Shown one piece after another: positions 2,488-58,470 of a DNA stretch of 64,000 bases. The notes beneath the pieces are model-generated. The model was not told the origin of the DNA. It saw only the letters and a list, made by a program, of their open reading frames with translations, and did not search any database. The first letter of the stretch is position 1. Each line of letters begins with the position of its first letter. The position numbers were made by a program, and so were the translations under genes. Source of the DNA: Narcine bancroftii. Its lineage: Eukaryota. The stretch covers positions 313,224,001-313,288,000 of the forward strand of contig NC_091470.1 in NCBI RefSeq assembly GCF_036971445.1, read 5' to 3'.

Positions 2488-3859
2488 TGTTACGAGCCCA
2501 GAGGACCCATAAACTCAGCAGCAATAGATATTCACCAAGACAAATGGTTACTTAAACAAAAGTTGCTTTTAATTATCTTTAAACATGAAAATAGAATTAA
2601 ACTTTAACTTATCTATTATTAACTTACTTAACCCTTTTCTAATTCTAAGTGCATGTGTATATAATGCGTGTGTAAATTCAGAAAAGTTCTTTGGTTCACA
2701 GTCCGATCTCACTTCTCATTCCTCTAAGTTCACTGGTTGCAGGCAATTCTTATACTGTGCACAGAATTTAACATGTATAAAGTTCACTATGATTTGGTGC
2801 TCGAAAGGTAAATGGTTACCGATCAGGAAGGTTCTTGTTGGTTTTCAGAGAGAGATGTGTTGTTCCAGGACATCCACAACTGAGGTACTTCCCTCAGTCA
2901 CCTCAGTGTTCTTTCTTTGGCTTGGCTTCGCGGACGAAGATTTATGGAGGGGGTAAAAAAGTCCACGTCAGCTGCAGGCTCGTTTGTGGCTGACAAGTCC
3001 GATGCGGGACAGGCAGACACGGTTGCAGCGGCTGCAGGGGAAAATTGGTTGGTTGGGGTTGGGTGTTGGGTTTTTCCTCCTTTGCCTTATGTCAGTGAGG
3101 TGGGCTCTGCGGTCTTCTTCAAAGGAGGTTGCTGCCCGCCAAACTGTGAGGTGCCAAGATGCACGGTTTGAGGCGATATCAGCCCACTGGCGGTGGTCAA
3201 TGTGGCAGGGACCAAGAGATTTCTTTAGGCAGTCCTTGTACCTCAGTGTAATGCTGAGGAAACTTGCCCCATTGGGGTTCTCCAGAAGATAACAAATTTC
3301 TTTCAGGCTATCACAGAGTTCCTTTCTGTTTCATTTGCATGAAACTTCTTGCATGAAAAACAAGGGCTGTGACTCAGCCTTCTTCCACACTGGAGTTCTG
3401 TTTCAGTTCCAGCTGTTCCCCTGGCCGAAACACAGTCAGAGACTGCTCTCTCTCTCTCTCACACACACACTCACTCAGACTGAGACAGCCTGTTTGACTC
3501 TCTCTACTCGCAAAAACACATGAGCTTCTCCAGCAAACATTAGGAGCCAGCATTCTCCTTCATCTGTTGCTTTTGGATAAACAAGAACCATCAGTGAAGT
3601 CTCTCAGCACTCTTCAAAGCTCCTGCAAAAAGGTGTGAGAATCCACTGTCTCCTCTGTTGCTTTATAAACAATAGTCCATTTATTCCACAACATCAGTCC
3701 AATTAACACCTACTTGTGAAGTCTCCATAAAAATTCTTCAAAGTTTCTGTAGTCACTGTGGACATGAAGTCTCCAGTATTTCAAGTAAGATTTGTTTTGA
3801 AGTGTTTGTATGTAACGTACTCTATCCTTTCCCAATTTATCTCTATATACTCTGTCACA
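2488..3859. mobile_element. Solo LTR with 4-bp TTAA target-site duplication, inserted in CR1
   Basis: TTAA(2484-2487)-TGTTAC...GTCACA-TTAA(3860-3863). CR1 sequence resumes on both sides. Confidence 0.8.
2910..3239 (-). mobile_element. 5'-truncated RTE LINE 3' end inserted in the solo LTR
   Basis: Near-identical to 38340-38670. TSD acctcagtgt at 2900-2909 and 3240-3249. Confidence 0.92.
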
Positions 3860-18199: not shown

Positions 18200-18990
18200 T
18201 AGGCCCAGTCCTGTCCATTTTGAATAATCAGAGTTGCACTGTACATCTAATCATCTTTTTCCAACCTTCTTTGCAAGATATTATCTTTAATGATTAGCAC
18301 AGATTGGGTATTAAATGTTTTGAAGACCTTTTTATTCAAAACAATTTTTCTTCCTTTGAACAATTAGTAGCAAAATTTAATTACCAAACACTACAAGTTC
18401 CCGAGGCAAACATTCTTAATATACTTTTTGATTTATAACTTTCTCATAAAGGTTTAATATCACTTATTTATAATAATTTGCTTCATTTAAGGATAGCCCT
18501 GTTAGTTAAAATCAAGAACGATTGGGCACAGGATTTGAAACTTTCATTCTCAAATGAGGTGTGAGACTCTATTTGTAATCTGATTAATACTCCCTCCTTT
18601 TGTGTGCAACCCTATTGCAATTTAAAGTGATCCATAAGGTACATATGTCTAAAGTTAAATTGTTTCATTTTTATTCAGATATAAATCCTCCATGTGACAA
18701 ATGCAAAATTGGTGATGGTTCTTTGCTTCACATGTTCTGGACTTGCCCTAGTTTAGAACAATTTTGGAAAGATATCTTTCAAACATTATCATTGATTCTT
18801 AATTTCAAATTAGGACCTTGCCATTTAATTGCTCGATTTGGATCATTTCAAGATGATGATGACGACTCCAACTCAAAACCAAATTTTTTCTTTTACTTCA
18901 CTGATAGCCACACATGCAATTTTGATTAAATGGAAAGATAAAACCCCACCTACACATACTTAATGGTTAAGTAATATTATGTCTTGCTTA
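18200..18990 (+). mobile_element. L1 ORF2 C-terminal fragment
   Basis: LLQFKVIHKVH...CDKC...SLLHMFWTCPSL cysteine-rich L1 C-terminus. Confidence 0.85.
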
Positions 18991-19139
18991 AGCGAGTAGG
19001 GACATCAAGTTCCTCAAGCAGATTGTGTTCAGCTTTGGAGTTCTGTGCATGTTGGTTTTCAAGTGTTCATAAATGCAAGAGGAGTTTTGGACTTCATATT
19101 TCCAGGCAGCAAGTTTCTTTCCTCTCATTCCCAACACCC

Positions 19140-21525: not shown

Positions 21526-23729
21526 CTACATAAAAAGAATAGAAAGAAAAGAAACAGATTTATGGCTCACATTTTTAGTTTTAAAAATTAGTTCAGACCA
21601 CTTCTTCCACAAAAACAATTGGTGATGATAACCACAGGAGTTAGTTTTCTCTGTGGGTTTATAGTTCTCAAACAGTTTAGCAAATCAGAGGTAGCCCTGC
21701 GGAAAAGTTAGCATTTTTATCCTTAATTTCTAACCAGCAATCGTCAAAATTTTGATTTGAAGTAGGCTATTCATGACCCTTTTATTAATATTTTGATATC
21801 GTCGATATTGTCACTTGATCATCTGATGCATTGCAATTTACAAGCTCACACGATAGAACTGGGTGGGGGAGGGGGCGAGATGAAAAGGGGAGGAGCGGCA
21901 TTGCTCATCATGAAAAATATCAAAGCTATGCTCAGGAAGGACACACTAGAGGGCGTGTCTACTGAGGCTATATGAGAAGAGCTGAGAAACAGGAAAGGTA
22001 TGACTATACTCATAGGGTTGTATGATATACCACCCAATAGTCATGAGAATTGGAGGAGCAAATCTATAGAAAGATAGCAGACAGCTGCAGGAAACACAAG
22101 GTTGTGAAAGCAGGAGATTTTAATTGTCCACATATTGACTGGAGCTCCCATACAGTAAAATGGCTGGATGGCTTAGAGTTTGTCAAATGTGTTCAGGTAA
22201 TTTTCTTTAAAATATTTTTATTGGTGTTTATATTATACATTATAAATACTTAAACAGTGCAGTTATATATTGTGCTATGATTCAAAAGGAAACAAATAAA
22301 TTATTACAAAAAAAGCTTTTAATTTTTTTTAATCCAGAGCACAAATCACATTGAAGAATAGAATTAACCACACAATGAAAAACCCAAAAGAAAAAAAATC
22401 TGTCAAAACCCTCTGTCACTAAGCAAGGTTAAAGTTAACATATAGGAATCAAGTGATAACTACTTGGAAATGGAAAGCGCAGCACCAAAGTTTCAGAGCA
22501 GCTCTATTCTTAAGATTATGATAATAGTCCATAAATAGGCTCCATGTCTTTTGGAAGTAAATATTTGAATCTTTGATAGCATATCTAATTTTTTCTAAAC
22601 TTAAACAAGACATGATCTCACCTAACCATTGAGTATGTGTAGGTGGAGTATTATCTTTCCATTTAATCAAAATTGCATGTGTGGCTATCAGCGAAGTGAA
22701 AGATAAAATTTAGTTTTGAGTTGGAGTCATCTTGAAATGAACCAAATATAACAATTAAAGGGCAAGGTTCTAATTTAACAATTTTTTTCTAAACTAGGGT
22801 AAGTCCAGAACCTGTAAACTAAAGAAGCTTCACCAATTAAACATTTGTCACATAGAGGATTTATTTCTGAATAAAAATGAGACAATTTAACTTTAGACAC
22901 ATGTACTCTATGGACAACTTTAAATTGCAAGTGTCGTGCACAATAGGAAGTAGTATTAATCAGATTCCCACACCTCATCTGGGAATAAAAGATTTAAAAC
23001 CTCTTCCCAGTCACTCTTCATTTTAATTAATGAGGATATCCTTAAATGAAGGAAATTATTATAAATAAAAGATATTAAACCTTTATGCGAAAGTTGCAAA
23101 TCAAACTGTATCAAGAATCTTTGCCTCGGAAATTTGAGGAAAGTCAGGGATGAGACTGAACAAAATGTCTATCATGTAAAGATCTTTAAAAAAAATTAGT
23201 GTTTGGAAAGTTAAATTTTACCACCAATTGTTCAAAAGAAGCAAAGGATTATTTTGAATAAAAAGGTCTTTAATACCCAATCTATGCCAGTCATTAAAGA
23301 CAGCATCTTGCAAAGAAGATGAAAAAGATGATTAGATAAAATAGGGCTATCAAGAGAAAAACTGAAATTCAAAAAAACCTTCTAAATTGTACCCTTATTC
23401 TCAAGCTATGTCTAATTATTGGATTATCAGTTAATTTATATAAAGAAAAAGATTTTTAAAAGACGCTAGAATTGGCAACATAGTATGGCAACATAGAATG
23501 GCAACATACTTCAAATTTGAAGTACTTTTAGTAAAATTCAGTTCCAAGTCTACCCATAAATGGCAGTCATGTGTACCCTTATCTGAGGATCTAAGGGACA
23601 AGATTTTGAAATGGTAAATACATCTTCTATGATTACATTCATTCATCCAATTCAAAGAGGAGCATAGTGTTTGCATGTCCAAAAATAAATTGGCTAGTAT
23701 TTTTTTCTAATATTAACCTTATTTGTGAC

Positions 23730-24480
23730 AGATGGGAATCTGAAATTGCTACATTGACACATATGTTTTGGCTTTATTCATCCTGAGAGAACTATTGGAA
23801 ATAAAGTTTTAATATATTTTCAATTATACTCCAGGAGGAGCTATGACCCAATCCAATAACTGCTCTTTTCGGGGTTTTTGACCCAGACATAGGGAGTTTT
23901 TCTGTACCTGTTTAACAGATTGTGGCCTTCTCTACATTGTTGCCTCTAAGAGCCATCCTATTCAAATAGAAAGGCCCTAGACCACCAACAGTGTTTCAAT
24001 GGTTTTCTCATGTTATGTTTTGTCAAAGCCTAGAAAAAAACTAGATATCATGTATTTGATTCATCAGTGAAATTTGAAGATACAAGTCAAGCTTTTATGA
24101 CTTATTTTCATATGATGCAAATATTTCCAATTGATTAGAAGTACTTACTCTTCCAGATGAGATATAATCTTACCTTTGTTTTTTGTTTTGCAGAGGAAAC
24201 CAAAAACTACAAAATATATGTAATCCTCAGGATAAGCTGCTCAGCTGTTTTTTTATTAGAATAAGTTAGGTGGGGTTTTTTATATACTTTTGATGGTTTG
24301 TTTTTTTTCCACCATTGCAGTGGAAGGGGGAACCAAGCTTACACAGTTTCAAATTTTAACTTTATACATATATAATACACACACACACACACACACACAC
24401 AATTGTATTTTCAGTTTGGTTCCCTTTTCTTCTTTGTATTGTATATCCTATAAAAACCAATAAAAACATCAAAAAATAAA
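23730..24480 (+). mobile_element. Second L1 3' fragment nested in opposite orientation
   Basis: THMFW, AILFK..PRPPT.FQW and SLEK.RY remnants; aataaa plus A-rich tail. Possible TSD gattatc at 23422 and 24481. Confidence 0.65.
24377..24401. repeat. (CA)n microsatellite
   Basis: About 12 units. Confidence 0.9.
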
Positions 24481-25506
24481 GATTATCGAAGTGTAACAAA
24501 AGAAGAAAATTAAATATATTGACTGCCCAGTAATAAAATCTAAAATTAGGAAACACCAATCCACCATTCCTTTTAGCTTTTTGAAGATGAGCTTTATTTA
24601 AGCAGGAACATTTTCCTTGCCATATGTAGGAAGATGTAAGTGAATCATGTGAGTAAAAAAAAAGGATTTGGGAATGAGGATTGGTATAGATTGGAAAGGA
24701 TACAAAAATTTAGGTTAAATGTTCATTTTAATAGAATTGCTGTGACCAATCATGGAAATAGATAAAGGTGACCATCTTGATAACAATAATTTGACCTGAT
24801 TGAATAAAGTAGAAATTTTTTCTTGAAAAAGATGTTTCTAACTCCAAGTAATTGTAAATTGATCTCTCACAATCTTAAAAGGAAAATTAAAATATCTTGG
24901 TATAAAACTATATTGGAATCAAGTAACATTTTCTAAATCAATATATAGAGGTACCAACTAGAGACAGTGCAATATTGGTTCCCCTTTTAGGGAACAAGTC
25001 AGGACAGTGACAGAGGTATGTGTTGGAGAACATTTGAGGTCCAGTCATCATAATGGAATTAGTTTCAAGTTAATTATGGAGAAGAATAGGTCTGAGCCTC
25101 AGGTTGAGTTTCCAAATTGAAAAAGACCAATTTTGAAGAAATGAGAAAGGATCTTGAATGCACGGATTGGGATAAGTTTTTTTTGGGCAAGGATGTGCGA
25201 GGTAAGTGGAAAAACTTCAAAGGTGAAATTTTGAGAGTCTGTACGTTCCTGCCAGAATTAAAGGCAAGGTTCAGAGGGAACCTTGGGTTTTTGAGGGATA
25301 TTGGGGATCTGGTTCAGAAGAAGAGAGGTGTATAGCAGGTCGAGGCAACATGAAGCAAATGAGGTATTTGAGGAGTATAAAAAAATGCAAGAAAAACCTC
25401 AAGAAAGGAATCAGGATTGTGAAAAGAAGATACAAGGTGGCTTTGGCAGATAAAGTGAAGGAAAATCCTAAGGGTTTCAACATACATATGAAGAGCAAAG
25501 GGAATG

Positions 25507-37845: not shown

Positions 37846-38337
37846 TGTTACGTCAAAGACCAGTGGCAATAGAAATTCACCAACACTATTGTATTTTTAA
37901 AACAATAGTTTTAATTACTAATAATATAACACCAGAGGTTCGTTTGTATGTGCTGTGTGCGCATTACCCAAACCATAACAGCTTAGGGACAATTCTGAAA
38001 AGTCACTTCAAAGTTCAGTCTCAGATTTCCCGTGTTGAAACTCAGAACCTTTAAATTGATGTTCCAAAGTAATTACAAAGTAGATGAGACACCGAGTCAT
38101 CAGACTTCTCAAAACTCATGAATCCTGAGAGTTGTTTCCGGAAAACTGTTCTTCAATCAAATGAGTTCACACCTCCACTCTTCCTTGCAAAGGGAAGACA
38201 AAACTTTTTTTTTAATTTATTTAAGATTTTATAACATGAATAACATATAGGATTACATTAAAAAAAATTAAGAATAAAATAATAAAATTACAATTCAGTA
38301 TCAGTAATCTAAATAAACTATACCCTCCCCAATAATT

Positions 38338-40497
38338 CTTTTTTCTTTGGCTTGGCTTCGCGGACGAAGATTTATGGAGGGGGTAAAAAGTCCACGTCAG
38401 CTGCAGGCTCGTTTGTGGCTGACCAGTCCGATGCGGGACAGGCAGACACGATTGCAGCGGTTGCAAGGGAAAATTGGTTGGTTGGGGTTGGGTGTTGGGT
38501 TTTTCCTCCTTTGCCTTTTGTCAGTGAGGTGGGCTCTGCGGTCTTCTTCAAAGGAGGCTGCTGCCCGCCAAACTGTGAGGCGCCAAGATGCACGGTTTGA
38601 GGCGTTATCAGCCCACTGGCGGTGGTCAATGTGGCAGGCACCAAGAGATTTCTTTAGGCAGTCCTTGTACCTTTTCTTTGGTGCACCTCTGTCACGGTGG
38701 CCAGTGGAGAGCTCGCCATATAATACGATCTTGGGAAGGCGATGGTCCTCCATTCTGGAGACGTGACCCATCCAGCGCAGCTGGATCTTCAGCAGCGTGG
38801 ACTCGATGCTGTCGACCTCTGCCATCTCGAGTACCTTGACGTTAGGGGTGTGAGCGCTCCAATGGATGTTGAGGATGGAGCGGAGACAACGCTGGTGGAA
38901 GCGTTCTAGGAGCCGTAGGTGGTGCCGGTAGAGGACCCATGATTCGGAGCCGAACAGGAGTGTGGGTATGACAACGGCTCTGTATACGCTTATCTTTGTG
39001 AGGTTTTTCAGTTGGTTGTTTTTCCAGACTCTTTTGTGTAGTCTTCCAAAGGCGCTATTTGCCTTGGCGAGTCTGTTGTCTATCTCATTGTCGATCCTTG
39101 CATCTGATGAAATGGTGCAGCCGAGATAGGTAAACTGGTTGACCGTTTTGAGTTTTGTGTGCCCGATGGAGATGTGGGGGGGCTGGTAGTCATGGTGGGG
39201 AGCTGGCTGATGGAGGACCTCAGTTTTCTTCAGGCTGACTTCCAGGCCAAACATTTTGGCAGTTTCCGCAAAGCAGGACGTCAAGCGCTGAAGAGCTGGC
39301 TCTGAATGGGCAACTAAAGCGGCATCATCTGCAAAGAGTAGTTCACGGACAAGTTTCTCTTGTGTCTTGGTGTGAGCTTGCAGGCGCCTCAGATTGAAGA
39401 GACTGCCATCCGTGCGGTACCGGATGTAAACAGCGTCTTCATTGTTGGGGTCTTTCATGGCTTGGTTCAGCATCATGCTGAAGAAGATTGAAAAGAGGGT
39501 TGGTGCGAGAACACAGCCTTGCTTCACGCCATTGTTAATGGAGAAGGGTTCAGAGAGCTCATTGCTGTATCTGACCCGACCTTGTTGGTTTTCGTGCAGT
39601 TGGATAATCATGTTGAGGAACTTTGGGGGACATCCGATGCGCTCTAGTATTTGCCAAAGCCCTTTCCTGCTCACGGTGTCGAAGGCTTTGGTGAGGTCAA
39701 CAAAGGTGATGTAGAGTCCTTTGTTTTGTTCTCTACACTTTTCTTGGAGCTGTCTGAGGGCAAAGACCATGTCAGTGGTTCCTCTGTTAGCGCGAAAGCC
39801 GCACTGTGATTCTGGGAGAATATTCTCAGCGACACTAGGTATTATTCTATTTAGTAGAATCCTAGCGAAGATTTTGCCTGCAATGGAGAGCAACGTGATT
39901 CCCCTGTAGTTTGAGCAGTCTGATTTCTCGCCTTTGTTTTTGTACAGGGTGATAATGGTGGCATCACGAAGATCCTGAGGCAGTTTACCTTGGTCCCAAC
40001 AAAGCTTGAAAAACTCATGCAGTTTGGCATGCAGAGTTTTGCCGCCAGCCTTCCAGACTTCTGGGGGGATTCCATCCATACCTGCTGCTTTGCCACTTTT
40101 CAGTTGTTCGATTGCCTTATATGTCTCATCCAGGGTGGGAACCTCATCCAGCTCTAGCCTTAGGGGCTGTTGAGGGAGCTGGAGCAGGGCGGAATCTTGG
40201 ACTGAGCGGTTGGTACTGAAAAGAGATTGGAAGTGTTCTGACCATCGGTTGAGGATGGAGATCTTGTCGCTGAGGAGGACTTTGCCGTCTGAGCTGCGCA
40301 GCGGGCTTTGGACTTGGGGTGAGGGGCCGTACACAGCCTTTAGAGCCTCGTAGAAACCCCTGAAGTCGCCAATGTCCGCGCTGAGCTGTGTTCGTTTGGC
40401 GAGGCTAGTCCACTCACCTTACAAAGCCGTCCTGTCCAGAGAAGAAACAAGCCTTCCGTCGCGCATGCAGCCATCTTCAGCGCAAACTCCGGGAGAT
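38338..40497 (-). mobile_element. Young 5'-truncated RTE-clade LINE with inverted 5' segment
   Basis: 14-bp TSD cctccccaataatt at 38324-38337 and 40498-40511. 3' end ccgcgaagccaagccaaagaaaaaagaa. Confidence 0.95.
38397..40334 (-). CDS. RTE reverse transcriptase ORF (uninterrupted 645 aa; N-terminal endonuclease missing)
   Basis: NYRGITLLS, QCGFR, FVDLTKAFDTV, GVKQGCVLAP, LFADD and FTYLG motifs; C-terminal CNRC...HKRAC zinc finger. Confidence 0.93.
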   Translation of the reverse strand: MYGPSPQVQSPLRSSDGKVLLSDKISILNRWSEHFQSLFSTNRSVQDSALLQLPQQPLRLELDEVPTLDETYKAIEQLKSGKAAGMDGIPPEVWKAGGKTLHAKLHEFFKLCWDQGKLPQDLRDATIITLYKNKGEKSDCSNYRGITLLSIAGKIFARILLNRIIPSVAENILPESQCGFRANRGTTDMVFALRQLQEKCREQNKGLYITFVDLTKAFDTVSRKGLWQILERIGCPPKFLNMIIQLHENQQGRVRYSNELSEPFSINNGVKQGCVLAPTLFSIFFSMMLNQAMKDPNNEDAVYIRYRTDGSLFNLRRLQAHTKTQEKLVRELLFADDAALVAHSEPALQRLTSCFAETAKMFGLEVSLKKTEVLHQPAPHHDYQPPHISIGHTKLKTVNQFTYLGCTISSDARIDNEIDNRLAKANSAFGRLHKRVWKNNQLKNLTKISVYRAVVIPTLLFGSESWVLYRHHLRLLERFHQRCLRSILNIHWSAHTPNVKVLEMAEVDSIESTLLKIQLRWMGHVSRMEDHRLPKIVLYGELSTGHRDRGAPKKRYKDCLKKSLGACHIDHRQWADNASNRASWRLTVWRAAASFEEDRRAHLTDKRQRRKNPTPNPNQPIFPCNRCNRVCLSRIGLVSHKRACS

Positions 40498-41723
40498 CCT
40501 CCCCAATAATTATTACACATTAATAACCCAACTCAAATTAGTCCAACCCCCCCTTCCCCCAAAATAAAGAGTGAAGAACTAATAAAGTTAATAATATATG
40601 TGAGAAAAAAAACCCACTTACAAAAAAAACATAACCGATTAAAATACTAACAAAAAGAAAAGTAATTAATACTAAGATATCAGACTTAAAAAACATATTT
40701 AAATCAAACTTAAATGCATATATTTAACAAATGGAGTTAAGATGAAACATATATTTAACTCAAACTTAATATAAAAAATTAGTAAAGTAAGTAACATTAT
40801 CTATCAAAAATTCTTAAACAATAATCAATTCTTAAAAAAATTGTAGCATGAAAAAAATGAAAAAAAACTTTCTCTATAGAGATAAACCTTCACCAAATAT
40901 CAACTAACTTCACATCTATCATCATATTAGTCACATAAACCACCATCTTAAAACAAAATTCAAACCTCATTAATCATTGTACAATTCAATTTTAGTACTC
41001 TTCCACCATTTTTCCCTTTTACTCTTGAATAGTTATCCAATAAAAGCTCCAATACCACATTTAAATATCCCCAATCATTACGTTAAAATTCAGATATCCA
41101 AATAATAAAAACACATCTACAACGAAATCTATATCTTCAACAAATGGAGCATAAACCACAAACAAAATTCAAGCCTCATTAAGAATTGTACAATTCAATT
41201 TATAATTTTCACCATTATTCCCTTCGTTCTATAACTAAAATAGCAAAATAATATACACCAGAATTACCACTCCTTTCACCTTAAAGTTAAAGAAAAAATT
41301 AAAAACTTATCCATCCCATTCACATTTAAATTTCAGATATTCCTTATCTACTGAATAAACTTTACAAAAAAAACCACATCAATTTTTAATTTTTTTAAAC
41401 AATCAAATACTTTCTTATGCTTTTTTTTTTATATTTAAACAAAAAAAAACCCCTTCACTCTTTAATCTAATAATACAAAAAAAGGAAGAAAAAAAACAGG
41501 TAGGAGGTTAAAAATACCCCCTCCCGTCTAAACCACGCAATGCGGTAACTCCCAAAATAAAAATGGGTGTGAGATAACTCACACATAGCAGATGACTTTC
41601 AGGAAATAGTGCCTATCCAGTTCTCTCCCCCAACTCTCACTTCATCTTAAACTAACATCATCATTATTTAATATCCCTTTTTTTCAAAAAAAACATTAGA
41701 AAAAAAAAGGAACAACTCTTCTT

Positions 41724-43099
41724 TTAATCAGCTCCAACTGCCGAGTCACCATTACAACCATTCCTTCTTGGAGCACGGCTCTTTTCTTCCATCTCTTGTC
41801 TCCTTGGAGATCGCGGCGGACTATGTCTCTGTTGAAACTGAGTAATTGGCAGCTCTTAAGCAAATGCTATAGCTTCCTTTGGAAAATCAAAGAACTTTGG
41901 TTGGTAACCATCTTAAAAAACCTTCAAAACAGCTGGATATCTAAAGGTTGCCTTGTAACCTTTCTTCCACAACAACTCTTTAGCAGGATTGAATTCCCGT
42001 CGTTGGAACATAACTTCTTGTCTCAAATCCGCATAGAAGAAAACTCGATTATTTTGAATCATCAAGGGTGATTTTCTCTGTTGTGCATTTCTAATAGCCA
42101 CTCGTAAAATTATTTCTCTGTCGTATTTCAAGCAACGAACCAAAACAGGTCTTGGACTTTGACCTGAAATAGGTCTTCTACGCAAGGCTCTGTGAGCACG
42201 TTCCAGTATTATACCTTCCAGGAAATGTTCTTGACCCAGGACCTGCGAAATCCATTCAGTAAAAAATTTTCTTGGGTCTGGTCCCTCCATACCTTCCGGC
42301 AAATCAATAATCTTTATATTGTTCTGTCTGGATTGGTTTTCCAAATAATCAATCTTTTTCACCAAATTTTTATTTTGAGTTTGTAAGTCTTCAATCATTT
42401 TGGTCACATCAAAAACTTGATCCCGTATTTCGTCTATATCTTCTTCATACGAATTAAATTTATCTCTCACTTCAAGCTTAAAAGCTCCAAACTCAGCCAT
42501 CTGTTGAGAATGTATTTTCACCAGAGTATTAAACCTAGTACCAAGTTCAGTCATAATCTTGGATAATCCCTGCATTGTATAAGATCATTTAGATTCAAGA
42601 TTCACAAAAATCTTTTCAATTGGAAGAGATTTTGGCTCAACAGATTCCTGCTTCTTCTGCATGACCAAAGGATCTTCTGTTCCTTCCCTCATTCTGGTTG
42701 CCTTCCTTGTAGTATGACTGCGTGTGGAAACCCCAGCCACAGCCTCTCCAGCAGTGACTGGAGGACGGTGGCCGGGGTTTTCCCCAGTCCATAATGTATT
42801 AAGTTCTCCCAGTACATCAAGTTGTATAGGTTCTTCTATCTCAAGAGGTGCAGTTTGCAGCGCCACCTCTACAGTTGACAAATGCCTTTGAGTAACTCTT
42901 TGTTCTAAAGGCTGTTTGGCGCCCTCTTAGGGGGCTCTACCGATGTAACATAGAACTCTACATCCGAAAACTCCACCTCTCTCCTGGGATCCATTTCACG
43001 CTGAGTCCCGGTGTCTTTCCTGCAGGTAGGCTCCAAAACTGTAGTTTTTTGATGATCTGTTGTCATTTTTTTTTTGCTCTTTTTCACCAATTGTACCAT
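41724..43099 (-). pseudogene. Disrupted L1 ORF1p (coiled coil + RRM + CTD)
   Basis: KIDYLENQSRQNNIKII.LPEGMEG, ILERAHRA, PRPVLVR, FFYADL..EV..QRREF and FRYPAVLKV motifs. ORFs 42585-42881 and 41913-42575 are in frame across one stop, and the frame continues through two more stops to TAA at 41724. One frameshift near 42900. Confidence 0.88.
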
Positions 43100-43769
43100 A
43101 AGTTATATTAACAGCACTGAAATTATCTAAACTTTTAAAGAATTTTAACGGGCATTTCTAGACAAAACATAAGATAGAGTCAGGAGAGGACTGGAAGGCA
43201 CGTCTGATCCTTACGCCATCTTGCCACGCCCCCCGGGAAGACAAAACTTGTGACTTCCATGATGCTTCCACGAACCTGATGCTTCCATGAACCAGGGAAA
43301 GATTAAATAAAATGACTATTAGAATAATCATGATCCAAATCCAGACAAGGGTAAATCAAAATGGCCATTATAATGGTCACAGCAATCACCGTTTCCCACT
43401 GACAAAGAGAAATAAACAGCAGTGTCCATCTCACACATTACTTCATTTCTGTCTTTTCAAATGACTGGCTGATGATATTGAATGCTACTTCTTCATGTGT
43501 CTCAATCACATGACTTGCTTGATCAATACTGGTTTCAGTTTCCATTTCGCAAAAGCATAAGTCATAGACCTATAACTTCTCTTCTCACCAGATGTCTGTT
43601 TCTTGGGTAAACAATCCAATATTATAGTCTTTAGTTGAGAGCATTAACTCTGTTTACAGCTTGGACTTGGATGCCTCTGCATCTATTCAAAATGTTATTA
43701 TGAAATATGTGAGTGTTTGCACCATGTTCCAACCCCAAAGAAACTCACTAAAAAAAAGCCTGCAGCAGC

Positions 43770-51395: not shown

Positions 51396-52593
51396 AAGAC
51401 GGACTATGTAACTCAAGCTGCCATCTAAAGATTTAAGTCAGTGAATTTACAGTTTTCCAGCAGCAGATAATACCTTACATAAATTAAAGAGAACAGAAGT
51501 GACATGACCAAGTTTAATTCACAAATGAACATACATTTGATAAATATCAATTTTCCTGTTGCTAAAATCCTCAGTAATATTGCAGATCATGCAAATGTCT
51601 GATTTTCAAAACACTTTTCAATTTGTGATTTGCTAAATGGAAATGACCATCAAACCACCATTGACAGATATTTGTTTAAATATCAGCCAATTCAAAATAG
51701 GCACCATCACAAATTGTAACATGCTTACTCTGCTCAACAGAACGACAGAGTCAGTTAAGAAGGGCAGACTGACTAACATTTTGAAAAATCAAATCTGCAT
51801 AGGCAGGAAACCTGCTCTTAAAACAAAAATTCTGGAAGTACTCAGCACAACAGACAACAGACAACAGTGTGGACAAAGAGTTGAAGTTTCAGGTCAAAGA
51901 TCCAGCATCAGAACTTATTGAGAACAAAACTTCCCACCTCCACACATCAAGTTGTAGCCTTTTCTACATTGTTGGCTTGAAGAGCTATTTTATTTAAATA
52001 GATAGATATGAATCCACCTACTTTGACTCAATGGTTCTCTCAAATTATGTCATGTTTCAGTTTAGAGAAAGTTAGGAGTCGTACAAGTGTGTTAAATTTG
52101 AGGAGTCTTGGCGACCTTTTATAAAATATTTCCACATGACTTAGTATAATTATTTTCCCTTCCAGACTATATTTAATTTTATTTCTTCTCTCTTCTCTCT
52201 TTGGGGTGATGAGAACATATTTGTTCATTGTGGTGTCATCCAATGTTATATCATATGATGTCATATAGTGATTTTTTTTCCCCCTTTCTGATTATGTGCT
52301 CCTATTCTCCCAATGTATTTTTTTTACCTATGATTACTAACAAGAATGAAAGAAATAGAGAACAAAACATTCATTATAATTTACAGAGATGGCGAGGTAA
52401 GGATGGATAAGACAAAGGGAAATTCTGTGATGGGGTGAGCCCAGAGTTGCAATGGGAATATGTTGTTAAGGTTATACAGTTGATGGGTTAATGGAGTTAA
52501 AGAAAATTGCAAAATTAGCTGTGAGATCAATTAGAAAATGAGACTAAAAACAAATAAATGTGGATCGATGTACAATGCAGGCTGTAGGGCATA

Positions 52594-55699: not shown

Positions 55700-58470
55700 T
55701 ATATAACTTGGGTAGAACAAGCTGCATTGCATGCAAGATAACAAGCCAGGCAAGTTTCCTGTCACAATTGGATCTCCCAAATTTGAATTTCAAAGAAAGG
55801 GAAGTGTTGAATGCTCATTTTACTCAAATTGAGATAGGGGAACCATTAGCCTCCTTGCAAATTAATAAATCCTGGGAGAGGACAGATTTCCACTGGAATT
55901 TTATAAATAATTTAAAGATTTATTAATACCTCTGCTTATGGAGGTATTAGATCAGGCACAGCCTCCTGGAGTCCTTTTTGACTGCAGTTATTACGGTGAT
56001 TTCCAAATAAGATAAGGATTCCCTGAAACCGTCATTTTATAATCACTTTTGAATATGGACTATAAGACTATTGCAAAAGCTTTGGCAAATAGATTAGCAT
56101 TTACTAATTTAGGCAAATAAGTTGCCAATCAAACTGGCTTTGTGCAGGGGAGGCAATCAGCAGACAATGTCTGAATATACATCTGATACAAACAAGAGAT
56201 GACTTGAGTGTCGCCATGGCTCTAGATGCAGAGAAAGCCCTTGACAGACTGGAGTTGGGCTTTTTATTCAAAGTTCTGCAACACTTTGGACTAGAACAAA
56301 CATTTATTAATTGGGTTAGAGCTCTATATTCTGAGCCTAAAGCTAAAGTGATAACTAATGGTCAAATTTCAGCAGCACTCCCAATGTCCACATCTAGAAG
56401 ACAAGGTTGTCCATTATCTCCGTCTTTCTCTCCTGGCTATTGAACTGTTAGCGGAATCCATCTGTCCAGATCCAGAATCAATCAGGAAGAATATAAAATT
56501 AATTTATTTACTGATTTACTTGACAGAATCAGTTAACTCATTACAAAAATTGCCATCTAGCTTTTATTGGGTTATAAAGTCAATTGGGACAAGAGCAAAG
56601 TTATGCCACTTACAGCTGAGAATTATGAACAAATTAAGAGAAATTCTCAATTTAAGTGGCTGCTCAATGAGATTAAATATTTAGATATTAAGGTAGATAA
56701 CAACCTGCAGAATTAAAGTTGAAATATCTTCCCTTGCTTCGGAAAATTCAGGATGATCTTAGTAAATGTGCTGCCTAAAGTACAAGATTCTTTTCAAAGT
56801 TTGCCTGTTCCTATACCTCAAATTCTTTCAAAACCTTAATAAATGCATCGGAAAGTTTCTGTGGAAAGGTAAGCCTTTCAAGAGACTCTTGATAAATTAA
56901 CTTGAAATTATGAATTGGGAGGATTAACACTCCCAGATTTCAAAAATTATTTTTGGGCAACCCAATTGAAGTTTCTTATCTCCCGCGTTGACAGAGGAGT
57001 AAAAGTGGAGTTATATAAGGTTTGTGCGGGGATAGCAGAAAACCTTTAAATGGAATTTTAAATTATTATCTGGCCCTAAAGAAGCCCCCCTATTAAAGCA
57101 TATAATTACAATATGGAATAAAATTAATTGTCAAAATGGGGTCAAGGGGGAGGGTCTTTCACCCAAAACACCCCTGGCTCAAAATAATTCCATTAACGAT
57201 TGTTAATAAAATCCTGGATACATGGTCCCAGAGAGGGGTCAAGTGTATTGAGGATTGTTATGAGCAGGGACAATTTATGACATTTCAGCAAATTAGGAAT
57301 AAATAGGGAGTTTGAAATACATCTTTTTTTCCTGCGATCTAAGTAAAGATCTTATTTACAGGACAAATTAGGTCCAGCACTAACCTTACCACAGTGCAGC
57401 GAAATTATTTCAAAAATGTATTCTTTACTTCAGGCAGGAACCCCTAAACAAGGGCTTGATAAATCAAGACAAAGGTGGGAATCAGATTTGGGTATAGAAA
57501 TTGATCCATTTTGCTGGTCCAACTTATGACGGGACATCATAATGAACACGATCAATGCAAGATATCAACTGGTGCAATACAACTTTTAGCATCAGATTTC
57601 CCTCACTCCACAAAAATTACATAAATTGAAATCGGAAATATCAAACTTTCTTGCATTCAACCTGGTCATGCCCTAAAGTGAGGCCTTTCTGGAAAGATTA
57701 GGGTAATCTCCTGGGGGAAAAAAATTACTGGAATTCAATACCCTCAGGCACCTGAATTATTTTTATTGGGGAATTTAGAAGACACGAGACCTAAAATGAG
57801 GCTGTTGAAATATCAATTAAAATTCATTAAGATCACTTTAGCAGTGACCAGGAAATGCATAGAAGTTACTTGGAAATCTGATTCCCAATTAGGTTTAGCC
57901 TAATTGGAAGATAAAAATGCATAATTGTGTTCCCCTGGAGAAGATCGCCTATAACCTCAGAAACAGATAGGATGTATTTTCAAGAATATGGAATTCATAC
58001 CCAATGTAAATCGGAGTAAACCTTTAACGATTCCTTCCTCCTGTCTTTTGCCCTGGTGCTCGCAGAACTGATGACCCTAGATACGTCAGGTTATTTGTCC
58101 CTTGATGGGAGTGGGGTTTATCCTTGGTGAAGCCAATCTTTTCTTTTTCTTTCTCTTCTTATTTCTTGAGGGGTGGGTGGGTTCCTTTTATTTTGTTCTT
58201 CTTTCTCTCTATTATCTTTCTATTATCTTTTCCTTCCTTTGGTTCAATATGGACATTGAATTTGCATTTTTGTGGTATTACTGTAATTCTTTTGTTTATA
58301 ATAATCGAAAGACATGTTGACTTTTTTCTCACTTTCTTTAATATTGACATGTGGATCGATATTTGCATTATTTTGTTAATATTATTGATATTGATGTTTT
58401 TCTTTTTGATTATTCTTCATTTTGACTTCATGCTGATTGAAAATTCTCAAATTAAAATATTCAAAAAAAT
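55700..58470 (+). mobile_element. 5'-truncated L1 (ORF2 RT to 3' UTR), decayed
   Basis: ALDAEKALDR..FLFKVL..FG...RQGCPLSP and GGLTLPDFKNYFWA peptides; A-rich end. Confidence 0.88.

What the first reader, a model, noticed from the sequence alone, without database searches (positions are those of the whole stretch)
38207..43234. Complete ORF1-only L1 derivative (half-L1-like) that retrotransposed as a unit
Seen: a perfect 15-bp TSD (gggaagacaaaactt) brackets an element with an L1-type 5' end (GGGGGGCGTGGCAAGATGGCG, containing the YY1-like AAGATGGC core). It continues through a ~450-codon ORF1 (three premature stops and one frameshift) and ~1.3 kb of very AT-rich sequence to AATAAA and poly(A). 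No endonuclease or RT remnant is visible. Known: autonomous L1 needs ORF2; ORF1-only HAL1 elements are described mainly from mammals. Inference: this is a non-autonomous family that kept its own RNA-binding protein and borrows ORF2p in trans, possibly an independent origin in this lineage.
Basis: partly seen in the sequence, partly recalled or inferred. Interest (0 to 1): 0.75.

Follow-up and report, generated by a model that had tools for sequence, protein, structure and literature searches.

The report
Half-L1 family with fossil endonuclease
This is one broken copy of a repeated 2.85-kb jumping gene, likely from an electric ray, that keeps the first LINE-1 gene but only a ruined stump of the copying-enzyme gene, so it likely borrows that enzyme from full LINE-1s; the stump is stripped of cytosines on one strand only, which likely records a mutation bias tied to how the element is copied.

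Summary
The boundaries are right: exact 15-bp TSD, L1-type 5' end, L1 ORF1, AATAAA, short poly(A), 2,854 bp once a nested RTE is removed. It is a family: three ORF1 proteins 90-94% identical lie on three large Narcine bancroftii sequences, and contigs without the RTE join both halves in 4 of 4 runs laid. Other copies lack this copy's ORF1 stops.

About 610 bp of the AT-rich part (41428-40815) is a dead ORF2 endonuclease domain (57.9 bits; best of 100 shuffles 20.6), and its stops are shared by other copies. No RT or C-terminal trace was found.

The relic has lost an estimated 70% of its sense-strand C to T but only 0-7% of G to A (likelihood ratio 58-65). Six other L1 ORF2 remnants in the window show no such asymmetry. 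ORF1 keeps C at codon positions 1-2.

Verdict: a HAL1-like, ORF1-keeping L1 deletion derivative, probably of independent origin in rays and moved in trans (inferred). The type is known; I found no report from cartilaginous fish. The strand-biased relic is the more interesting part; its cause is untested.

The parts
43235..43249 (.). Target-site duplication, copy at the element's 5' side (15 bp)
   Evidence: Exact match to 38192-38206, only two occurrences in the window
43103..43234 (-). Short L1-type 5' UTR beginning with six G and the CAAGATGGC motif
   Evidence: Sequence; the motif is described as a YY1 site at mammalian L1 5' ends in PMC5381506 (passage); binding not tested
41724..43102 (-). 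L1 ORF1 (about 464 codons in intact relatives; long N-terminal extension, then coiled coil, RRM, C-terminal domain). This copy is broken by 3 stops (42587-42585, 41915-41913, 41858-41856) and 3 frameshifts
   Evidence: Human ORF1p 2ykp E=3.7e-5; ESM Atlas models of Transposase_22 clusters TM up to 0.86; 326 of 351 residues identical to P0006; other contigs differ at all three stops
41429..41723 (-). T-rich inter-ORF spacer, about 295 bp
   Evidence: Lies between the ORF1 stop and the start of the endonuclease match; fish and frog L1 spacers are 257-1,032 bp in PMC5381506 (passage). No ORF2 start codon region was detected
40815..41428 (-). Dead ORF2 endonuclease relic (profile positions about 23-211 of 1,271), with stops, frameshifts and strong sense-strand C depletion
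   Evidence: hmmsearch E=1.3e-5 on 18 frames; frameshift-aware score 46.5 vs max 21.1 in 200 shuffles, 57.9 vs max 20.6 in 100; C 27 of 540 aligned bases
40882..41058 (-). Internal duplication inside the relic, similar to 41105-41270
   Evidence: Local alignment score 113 vs max 74 in 200 shuffles; blastn core 85 nt at 80%
40512..40814 (-). T-rich 3' UTR-like region ending in G tracts
   Evidence: No ORF2 match above shuffles; origin from an L1 3' UTR not shown
38338..40511 (-). Later RTE insertion (38338-40497; 5'-truncated, 673-codon open frame with RT, 5' piece 40414-40497 inverted) plus one copy of its 14-bp TSD
   Evidence: RVT_1 E=8e-36; TSD; skip joint 38323-40498 and opposite-strand joint 40413/40499 in 4 of 4 runs; translation of the inverted piece
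38207..38337 (-). Element 3' end: rest of the UTR, AATAAA (38221-38216), A7 tail
   Evidence: Sequence; joined to 40498 in contigs of all four runs
38192..38206 (.). Target-site duplication, copy at the element's 3' side (15 bp)

Best explanation
The stretch is a dead copy of a repeated L1 derivative that keeps the L1 5' end, ORF1, spacer and a ruined endonuclease stump but has no detectable reverse transcriptase; it likely arose by an old internal deletion, is likely transcribed from its own 5' end, likely coats its RNA with its own ORF1p, and likely borrows ORF2p from an autonomous L1 to insert. Shown: the anatomy, TSD and tail, other copies, ORF1 open in other copies while the stump's stops are shared, and sense-strand C loss in the stump. 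Inferred: ORF1 was kept by selection on the element while the untranslated stump drifted over many rounds of copying under a strand-specific C-to-T pressure. I favour deamination of C while the sense strand is single-stranded (as RNA, or as the displaced DNA strand in transcribed source copies) over selection for U-rich RNA, roughly 60:40. An RTE later inserted into this copy's 3' UTR.
For: TSD and tail. ORF1 homology. Three N. bancroftii proteins 90-94% identical on sequences of 376, 494 and 108 Mb. Contigs lacking the RTE join 38323 to 40498 in 4 of 4 runs laid, 3 organism codes, 4 studies (X1 may be the window's own source). At the three ORF1 stops, 88-100% of X1 depth and 99.8-100% of X9 depth read another letter. 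X9 contig 27 (40907-41255) and X11 contig 14 (40964-41274) each differ from the window at only 2 letters, one of them 41206, over a stretch with 8 stops in the relic's main frame. Endonuclease match far above shuffles; no match beyond it: 15.1 vs null mean 17.1, 15.4 vs 17.7. C at codon positions 1+2 vs 3: ORF1 169/800 vs 37/400 (p=1e-7); relic 20/360 vs 7/180 (p=0.53). 32 codons one C-to-T away from a stop survive in 400 ORF1 codons. Fitted C>T 0.69-0.72 vs G>A 0-0.07, LR 58-65; pooled six control remnants 0.05-0.07 vs 0.10, LR 3.7. In 84 simulations with no or symmetric decay (82 fitted) LR never passed 4.0 with C>T above G>A.
Against: No genome is held, so no second full-length copy with its own TSD was seen, and no listed contig spans the element. 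In X9 the depth over most ORF1 bins (684-2,586) exceeds that over the relic (416-717), which could mean ORF1-bearing relatives with another 3' part; 4,062 loose ends and 170 joints were not shown. The ancestral endonuclease is approximated by a profile of 33 proteins, mostly unnamed and where named from bony fish, not the true parent; controls cover RT and C-terminal parts, not the endonuclease. No young intact helper L1 was found; ORF2 remnants in the window are old. No sequence context for the lost C stands out. The 3' UTR was not traced to an L1 3' end (14-30 of 1,000 shuffles reach the best score).
Confidence: 0.78

Rival explanations
1. Recent 5' swap: a long-decayed, non-coding endonuclease-plus-tail element picked up a fresh 5' UTR and ORF1 from an active autonomous L1 by template switching. 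ORF1 would then be intact because it is borrowed, not because the half-element selected for it.
For: ORF1 bins are deeper than relic bins in X9. Three ORF1 families exist among N. bancroftii proteins (43-72% identity between families) and their 3' parts are unknown. L1 is known to replace its 5' end in mammals (PMC5381506, passage).
Against: In X1 relic depth (69,000-91,000) is not lower than ORF1 depth (22,000-67,000) (depth is not a copy number). Spacer and ORF1 fourfold sites are as C-poor (11% and 10%) as expected for a shared history. ORF1, spacer and endonuclease start are in native order.
Confidence: 0.12
2. A host-domesticated ORF1 gene (L1TD1-like) sits at one fixed locus, its ORF2 decayed in place as a 3' UTR, and the copies are its processed pseudogenes.
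For: ORF1 copies are annotated as host gene models, some with several isoforms. ORF1 shows the codon-position pattern of purifying selection. Transcription of a fixed locus could give a strand bias.
Against: Divergent high-depth variants exist (X1 contig 3: 9 differences in 154 nt, depth 758) and shorter variants skip 94, 182 or 602 bp of the 3' part, which points to several source elements. The internal L1 5' end is retained, so copies would carry their own promoter. A roughly tenfold C>T over G>A excess is more than I recall for host transcription bias (recalled, not checked).
Confidence: 0.07
3. A one-off deleted or rearranged L1 copy, not a family.
For: Only one whole copy was seen (no genome).
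Against: RTE-free joints in 4 of 4 runs, long near-identical relic contigs in two other organism codes, and element depth of 21,855-96,997 against 289 in the next flank bin in X1. The relic is far more decayed than the 1-2% by which this copy differs from those contigs.
Confidence: 0.02

Closest known systems
HAL1 (half-L1) of placental mammals and marsupials (Smit 1999; Bao and Jurka 2010, neither seen; described in passages of PMC5753468, PMC5322556, PMC5786205)
   Same: L1-derived ORF1 as the only coding gene, poly(A), TSD, repeated copies, presumed dependence on L1 RT/EN; said to have arisen several times independently.
   Different: Cartilaginous-fish host (inferred), fish-type short 5' UTR and long spacer, and a 610-bp dead endonuclease relic with strand-specific C loss. 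The passages read place HAL1 in mammals and do not mention ORF2 relics; the primary paper could not be read.
ORF1-present bipartite non-autonomous LINEs: HeT-A (Jockey clade) and Ag-Sponge (CR1 clade) (PMC5786205, passage)
   Same: Internal loss of ORF2 with ORF1 kept; the protein is proposed to multimerise with the autonomous partner's proteins.
   Different: L1 clade, dispersed with TSD; origin of the 3' part from the parent's 3' end not shown here.
Autonomous fish-type L1 (PMC5381506, passages)
   Same: Short 5' UTR, ORF1, T-rich spacer of several hundred bp, endonuclease in native position, T-rich 3' end, AATAAA and poly(A).
   Different: Endonuclease is dead across copies; RT and C-terminal domain not detected; 2.85 kb long.
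L1TD1, domesticated L1 ORF1 gene of mammals (PMC4161310, abstract start and two passages)
   Same: L1 ORF1-derived protein kept open.
   Different: This is a repeated element with TSD, tail and L1 5' end, with several variants; no fixed host locus shown.

Membership tests
HAL1-type non-autonomous L1 | Encodes an L1-derived ORF1p | tested here: met
   PDB 2ykp E=3.7e-5; Atlas structure matches to Transposase_22 clusters. Pfam itself gave no Transposase_22 hit
HAL1-type non-autonomous L1 | Encodes no ORF2p | tested here: met
   No RT or C-terminal match; endonuclease present only as a relic whose stops are shared by contigs of X9 and X11
HAL1-type non-autonomous L1 | Poly(A) tail and TSD | tested here: met
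HAL1-type non-autonomous L1 | Dispersed family of the same architecture | tested here: met
   Three ORF1 proteins on three large sequences; RTE-free joints in 4 of 4 runs. Limit: no second whole copy with its own TSD was seen
HAL1-type non-autonomous L1 | Mobilised by L1 ORF2p in trans | not testable with these tools
   Inferred from tail, TSD and lack of RT; helper not identified
Mammalian HAL1 lineages (by descent) | ORF1 nested within a mammalian HAL1 or L1 clade | not tested
   No HAL1 sequences were available and no tree was built; closest hits are ray proteins and human ORF1p is remote, so separate origin is inferred
Autonomous L1 | ORF2 with endonuclease, RT and C-terminal domain | tested here: not met
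   Only profile positions 23-211 of 1,271 match, with stops and frameshifts
Bipartite non-autonomous LINE (5' part plus 3' part of the parent) | 5' part from the autonomous LINE | tested here: met
   5' UTR, ORF1, spacer, endonuclease start in native order
Bipartite non-autonomous LINE (5' part plus 3' part of the parent) | 3' part from the autonomous LINE's 3' end | tested here: inconclusive
   1 of 10 comparisons with five resident L1 3' regions beat 100 shuffles, but 14 and 30 of 1,000 shuffles reached it on retest
Domesticated ORF1 gene (L1TD1-like) | Single syntenic locus conserved between species | not testable with these tools
   No genome held

The most novel reading that the evidence does not exclude
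An old half-L1 lineage in rays carries its own neutral mutation reporter: an endonuclease relic that shows L1-type copying in this host converts sense-strand C to T about ten times more often than G to A, the opposite of first-strand cDNA editing by APOBEC3. This would point to deamination at the RNA or displaced-strand stage and give a direct mutational explanation for the strand-biased base content of fish L1s.
Probability: 0.35. Interest if true: 0.75.

Novelty: new variant of a known kind. Interest (0 to 1): 0.52.

Why it matters
It would extend ORF1-keeping L1 parasites from mammals to cartilaginous fish, and it shows the route of origin: loss of RT with the endonuclease left to rot while ORF1 stays open, which argues that ORF1p made in cis matters for the element. 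More useful still, the relic is coding sequence released from protein constraint but still copied by retrotransposition. [quoted passage not shown] Here the change is C-to-T on the plus strand, so mutation versus selection can be tested directly on the family's internal branches.

Tried and rejected
Whole-genome BLAST: no genome held. blastn and tblastx of the element against the window: no other copy. Pfam on six frames of 40512-41723: 0 families; this blank was misleading, since tblastn and profiles found the relic. A profile of 7 ORF2 proteins that mostly lacked the endonuclease also missed it. RT or C-terminal remnants: none above shuffles, also with a C-to-T-aware score. A third copy of the internal duplication: not above shuffles. 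Sequence context of surviving C: nothing clear beyond fewer CpG. Match of the relic to 44.9-45.05 kb: weak (45 vs max 38 of 50 shuffles), region chosen after seeing it, treated as chance. Another endonuclease remnant in the window to serve as a like-for-like control: none convincing. Metagenome scan with P0006: 298 pattern matches, 0 confirmed. Expression: no RNA holder listed on record; X6 is only guessed to be RNA, so I draw nothing on transcription. RNA fold of the AT-rich part: no shuffles given, not used. Earlier findings by place or sequence: none. Bao and Jurka 2010: not held. No ORF1 tree or dN/dS: no DNA of other copies and no HAL1 sequences. Repbase and Dfam were not available.
Full report
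Observation. The element lies on the minus strand, 43234 to 38207. A 15-bp word flanks it exactly and occurs nowhere else in the window; 500 shuffles of the two end zones gave at most 12. It starts with six G and CAAGATGGC, a motif described as the YY1 site of mammalian L1 5' ends (PMC5381506, passage), and ends with AATAAA and seven A. An RTE with its own 14-bp TSD occupies 38338-40511. Without it the element is 2,854 bp.

ORF1. The frame read with X at stops matches human L1 ORF1p over coiled coil, RRM and C-terminal domain (E=3.7e-5); a relative's Atlas model matches Transposase_22 clusters (TM up to 0.86). Pfam gave no L1 family. The nearest proteins are Narcine bancroftii gene models, so the window is likely from this electric ray or a near relative (inference). 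Three of them (P0002, P0003, P0006) are 90-94% identical and lie on sequences of 376, 494 and 108 Mb; two more distant ORF1 families exist. Against P0006 this copy has 326 of 351 identical residues, three frameshifts and a one-codon gap; intact length is about 464 codons.

Family. Eleven of 15 listed runs, in 5 studies and 4 organism codes, hold part of the stretch. I laid 4 of the 15 (X1, X6, X9, X11). X1 may be the window's own source and X6 is only guessed to be RNA. All four have a contig that joins 38323 to 40498, that is, copies without the RTE. At the three ORF1 stops nearly all depth reads another letter (X1: 88%, 100%, 99.9%), and an extra base is seen at the 42926 frameshift, so these breaks belong to this copy. 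X9's four listed element contigs differ from the window at 8 of 753 letters. Depth over the element in X1 is 21,855-96,997 against 289 in the next flank bin; the tool states that this is no copy number, so I use it only as a sign of repetition. Against my reading: no listed contig spans the element, in X9 most ORF1 bins are deeper than relic bins, and most loose ends and joints were not shown.

The AT-rich part is not ORF2-free. tblastn with two full-length ORF2 proteins gave a weak endonuclease match. A profile of 147 ORF2 proteins (from; 5 of 152 dropped as longer than 1,420 residues) matched one minus frame at E=1.3e-5. My frameshift-aware alignment scored 46.5 bits against a maximum of 21.1 in 200 dinucleotide shuffles; with a profile of 33 closer proteins that I picked, 57.9 against 20.6 in 100. 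The match runs 41428 to 40815, profile positions about 23-211, through the DIW and RIDY motifs. The profile's ETH motif is gone, a frameshift falls at its GDFN motif, and its DH motif is not reached. A duplicated piece sits inside (113 vs max 74 in 200 shuffles). Contigs of X9 and X11 cross 8 stops of the main frame with only two differences each, so the relic is dead in other copies too. Beyond the endonuclease nothing scores above shuffles. The 3' region resembles L1 3' ends in make-up only.

Strand-specific decay. On the sense strand the aligned relic has 27 C in 540 bases against 807 in 4,680 for six other L1 ORF2 remnants in the window (p=2e-16), while G is not reduced (114 of 540 vs 749 of 4,680). 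Residues that need C (A, P, T, H, Q) are 5.4% of the relic and 16-27% of 11 homologous endonucleases. A codon model gives C>T 0.69-0.72 and G>A 0-0.07, likelihood ratio 58-65 against symmetry; pooled controls give 0.05-0.07 and 0.10, ratio 3.7. In 84 simulations with no or symmetric decay (82 long enough to fit) the ratio stayed at or below 4.0 when C>T exceeded G>A; 28 simulations at C>T 0.7 (26 fitted) recovered 0.69. The region is the most C-poor of all 600-nt windows tested. Limits: the profile stands in for an unknown parent, codon usage comes from the controls, and the controls are not endonuclease regions. ORF1 has C at 21% of codon positions 1-2 and 9% of position 3 (p=1e-7); the relic shows no such difference (p=0.53). 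The nested RTE has 47% C at fourfold sites, so the bias is not general to this locus. Resident L1 ORF2 remnants are also T-rich at fourfold sites (T 42%, C 14%), but there G is low too (12%).

How it likely works. An L1 lost most of ORF2 by internal deletion or early polyadenylation. Its RNA still starts at the L1 5' end, makes ORF1p and carries poly(A), and is likely reverse transcribed by ORF2p of an autonomous L1 (inferred from tail, TSD and lack of RT; no helper identified; the target site fits the T-rich L1 preference, as I recall it, only weakly). ORF1 stayed open while the stump decayed, which suggests selection for ORF1p in cis. The stump took up C-to-T changes on the sense strand over many rounds. 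A post-insertion genomic process would be strand-symmetric (general knowledge), and APOBEC3 editing gives G-to-A on the plus strand (PMC9099904, passage), so I favour deamination of the RNA or of the displaced sense DNA strand. Reverse-transcriptase error and selection for U-rich RNA remain open, and no context motif was seen. Confidence 0.78 for the family model; rivals are a recent 5' swap (0.12), processed copies of a domesticated gene (0.07) and a one-off (0.02).

What is known. HAL1 is described as an ORF1-only L1 derivative that arose several times in mammals (passages of PMC5753468, PMC5322556, PMC4161310), grouped with HeT-A and Ag-Sponge (PMC5786205, passage). [quoted passage not shown] PMC5203782 has no occurrence of HAL1 or shark. 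Eight searches (listings and abstract starts, plus the passages named) showed no HAL1-like family from sharks or rays and no strand-specific C loss in an ORF2 relic. The primary HAL1 paper was not held, Repbase and Dfam were not available, and no supplements were read, so a prior entry cannot be excluded. Unchecked notes from this scan list similar ORF1-only elements in other genomes, among them fungi and a protist, so the life style is recurrent.

Verdict. Works like HAL1 and meets its structural definition; descent from mammalian HAL1 is untested and unlikely. New variant of a known kind. Interest 0.52, carried mainly by the relic, which makes the origin of L1 strand bias testable.

Noticed in passing
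window 40414-40497: The nested RTE has an inverted 5' piece: read on the + strand it gives an open RTE-like peptide that appears to precede the minus-strand frame, a twin-priming-like structure in an RTE. An opposite-strand joint at 40413/40499 is seen in 4 of 4 runs, as expected for uninverted RTE copies.
   Followed up: partly
window 2909-3243: Second, short copy of the same RTE family, 96.7% identical over 335 nt.
   Followed up: no
proteins P0004, P0007, P0008, P0012 and P0010, P0171, P0172: Two sister ORF1 families in N. bancroftii (48-60% to this ORF1); whether they are autonomous or also half-L1 is unknown.
   Followed up: partly
protein P0011: A GALNT6-like gene model whose last part is a sister-family L1 ORF1, suggesting exonisation or a model artefact.
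   Followed up: no
window 40597-40692, 40631-40814, 40874-41477: Contigs skip 94, 182 and 602 bp of the 3' part, suggesting still shorter variants; the 602-bp skip would remove most of the relic.
   Followed up: no
window 43057-43247: Depth rises at the 5' terminus in X1 and X6, suggesting the 5' end is shared with other L1 families.
   Followed up: no
window 18259-18993, 22506-23437, 23579-24120, 24488-24897, 51927-52132, 55717-57698: Six old L1 ORF2 remnants of ordinary type, used as controls.
   Followed up: partly
window 43260-43293: A 17-bp tandem pair just outside the 5' TSD; no link to the element seen.
   Followed up: no
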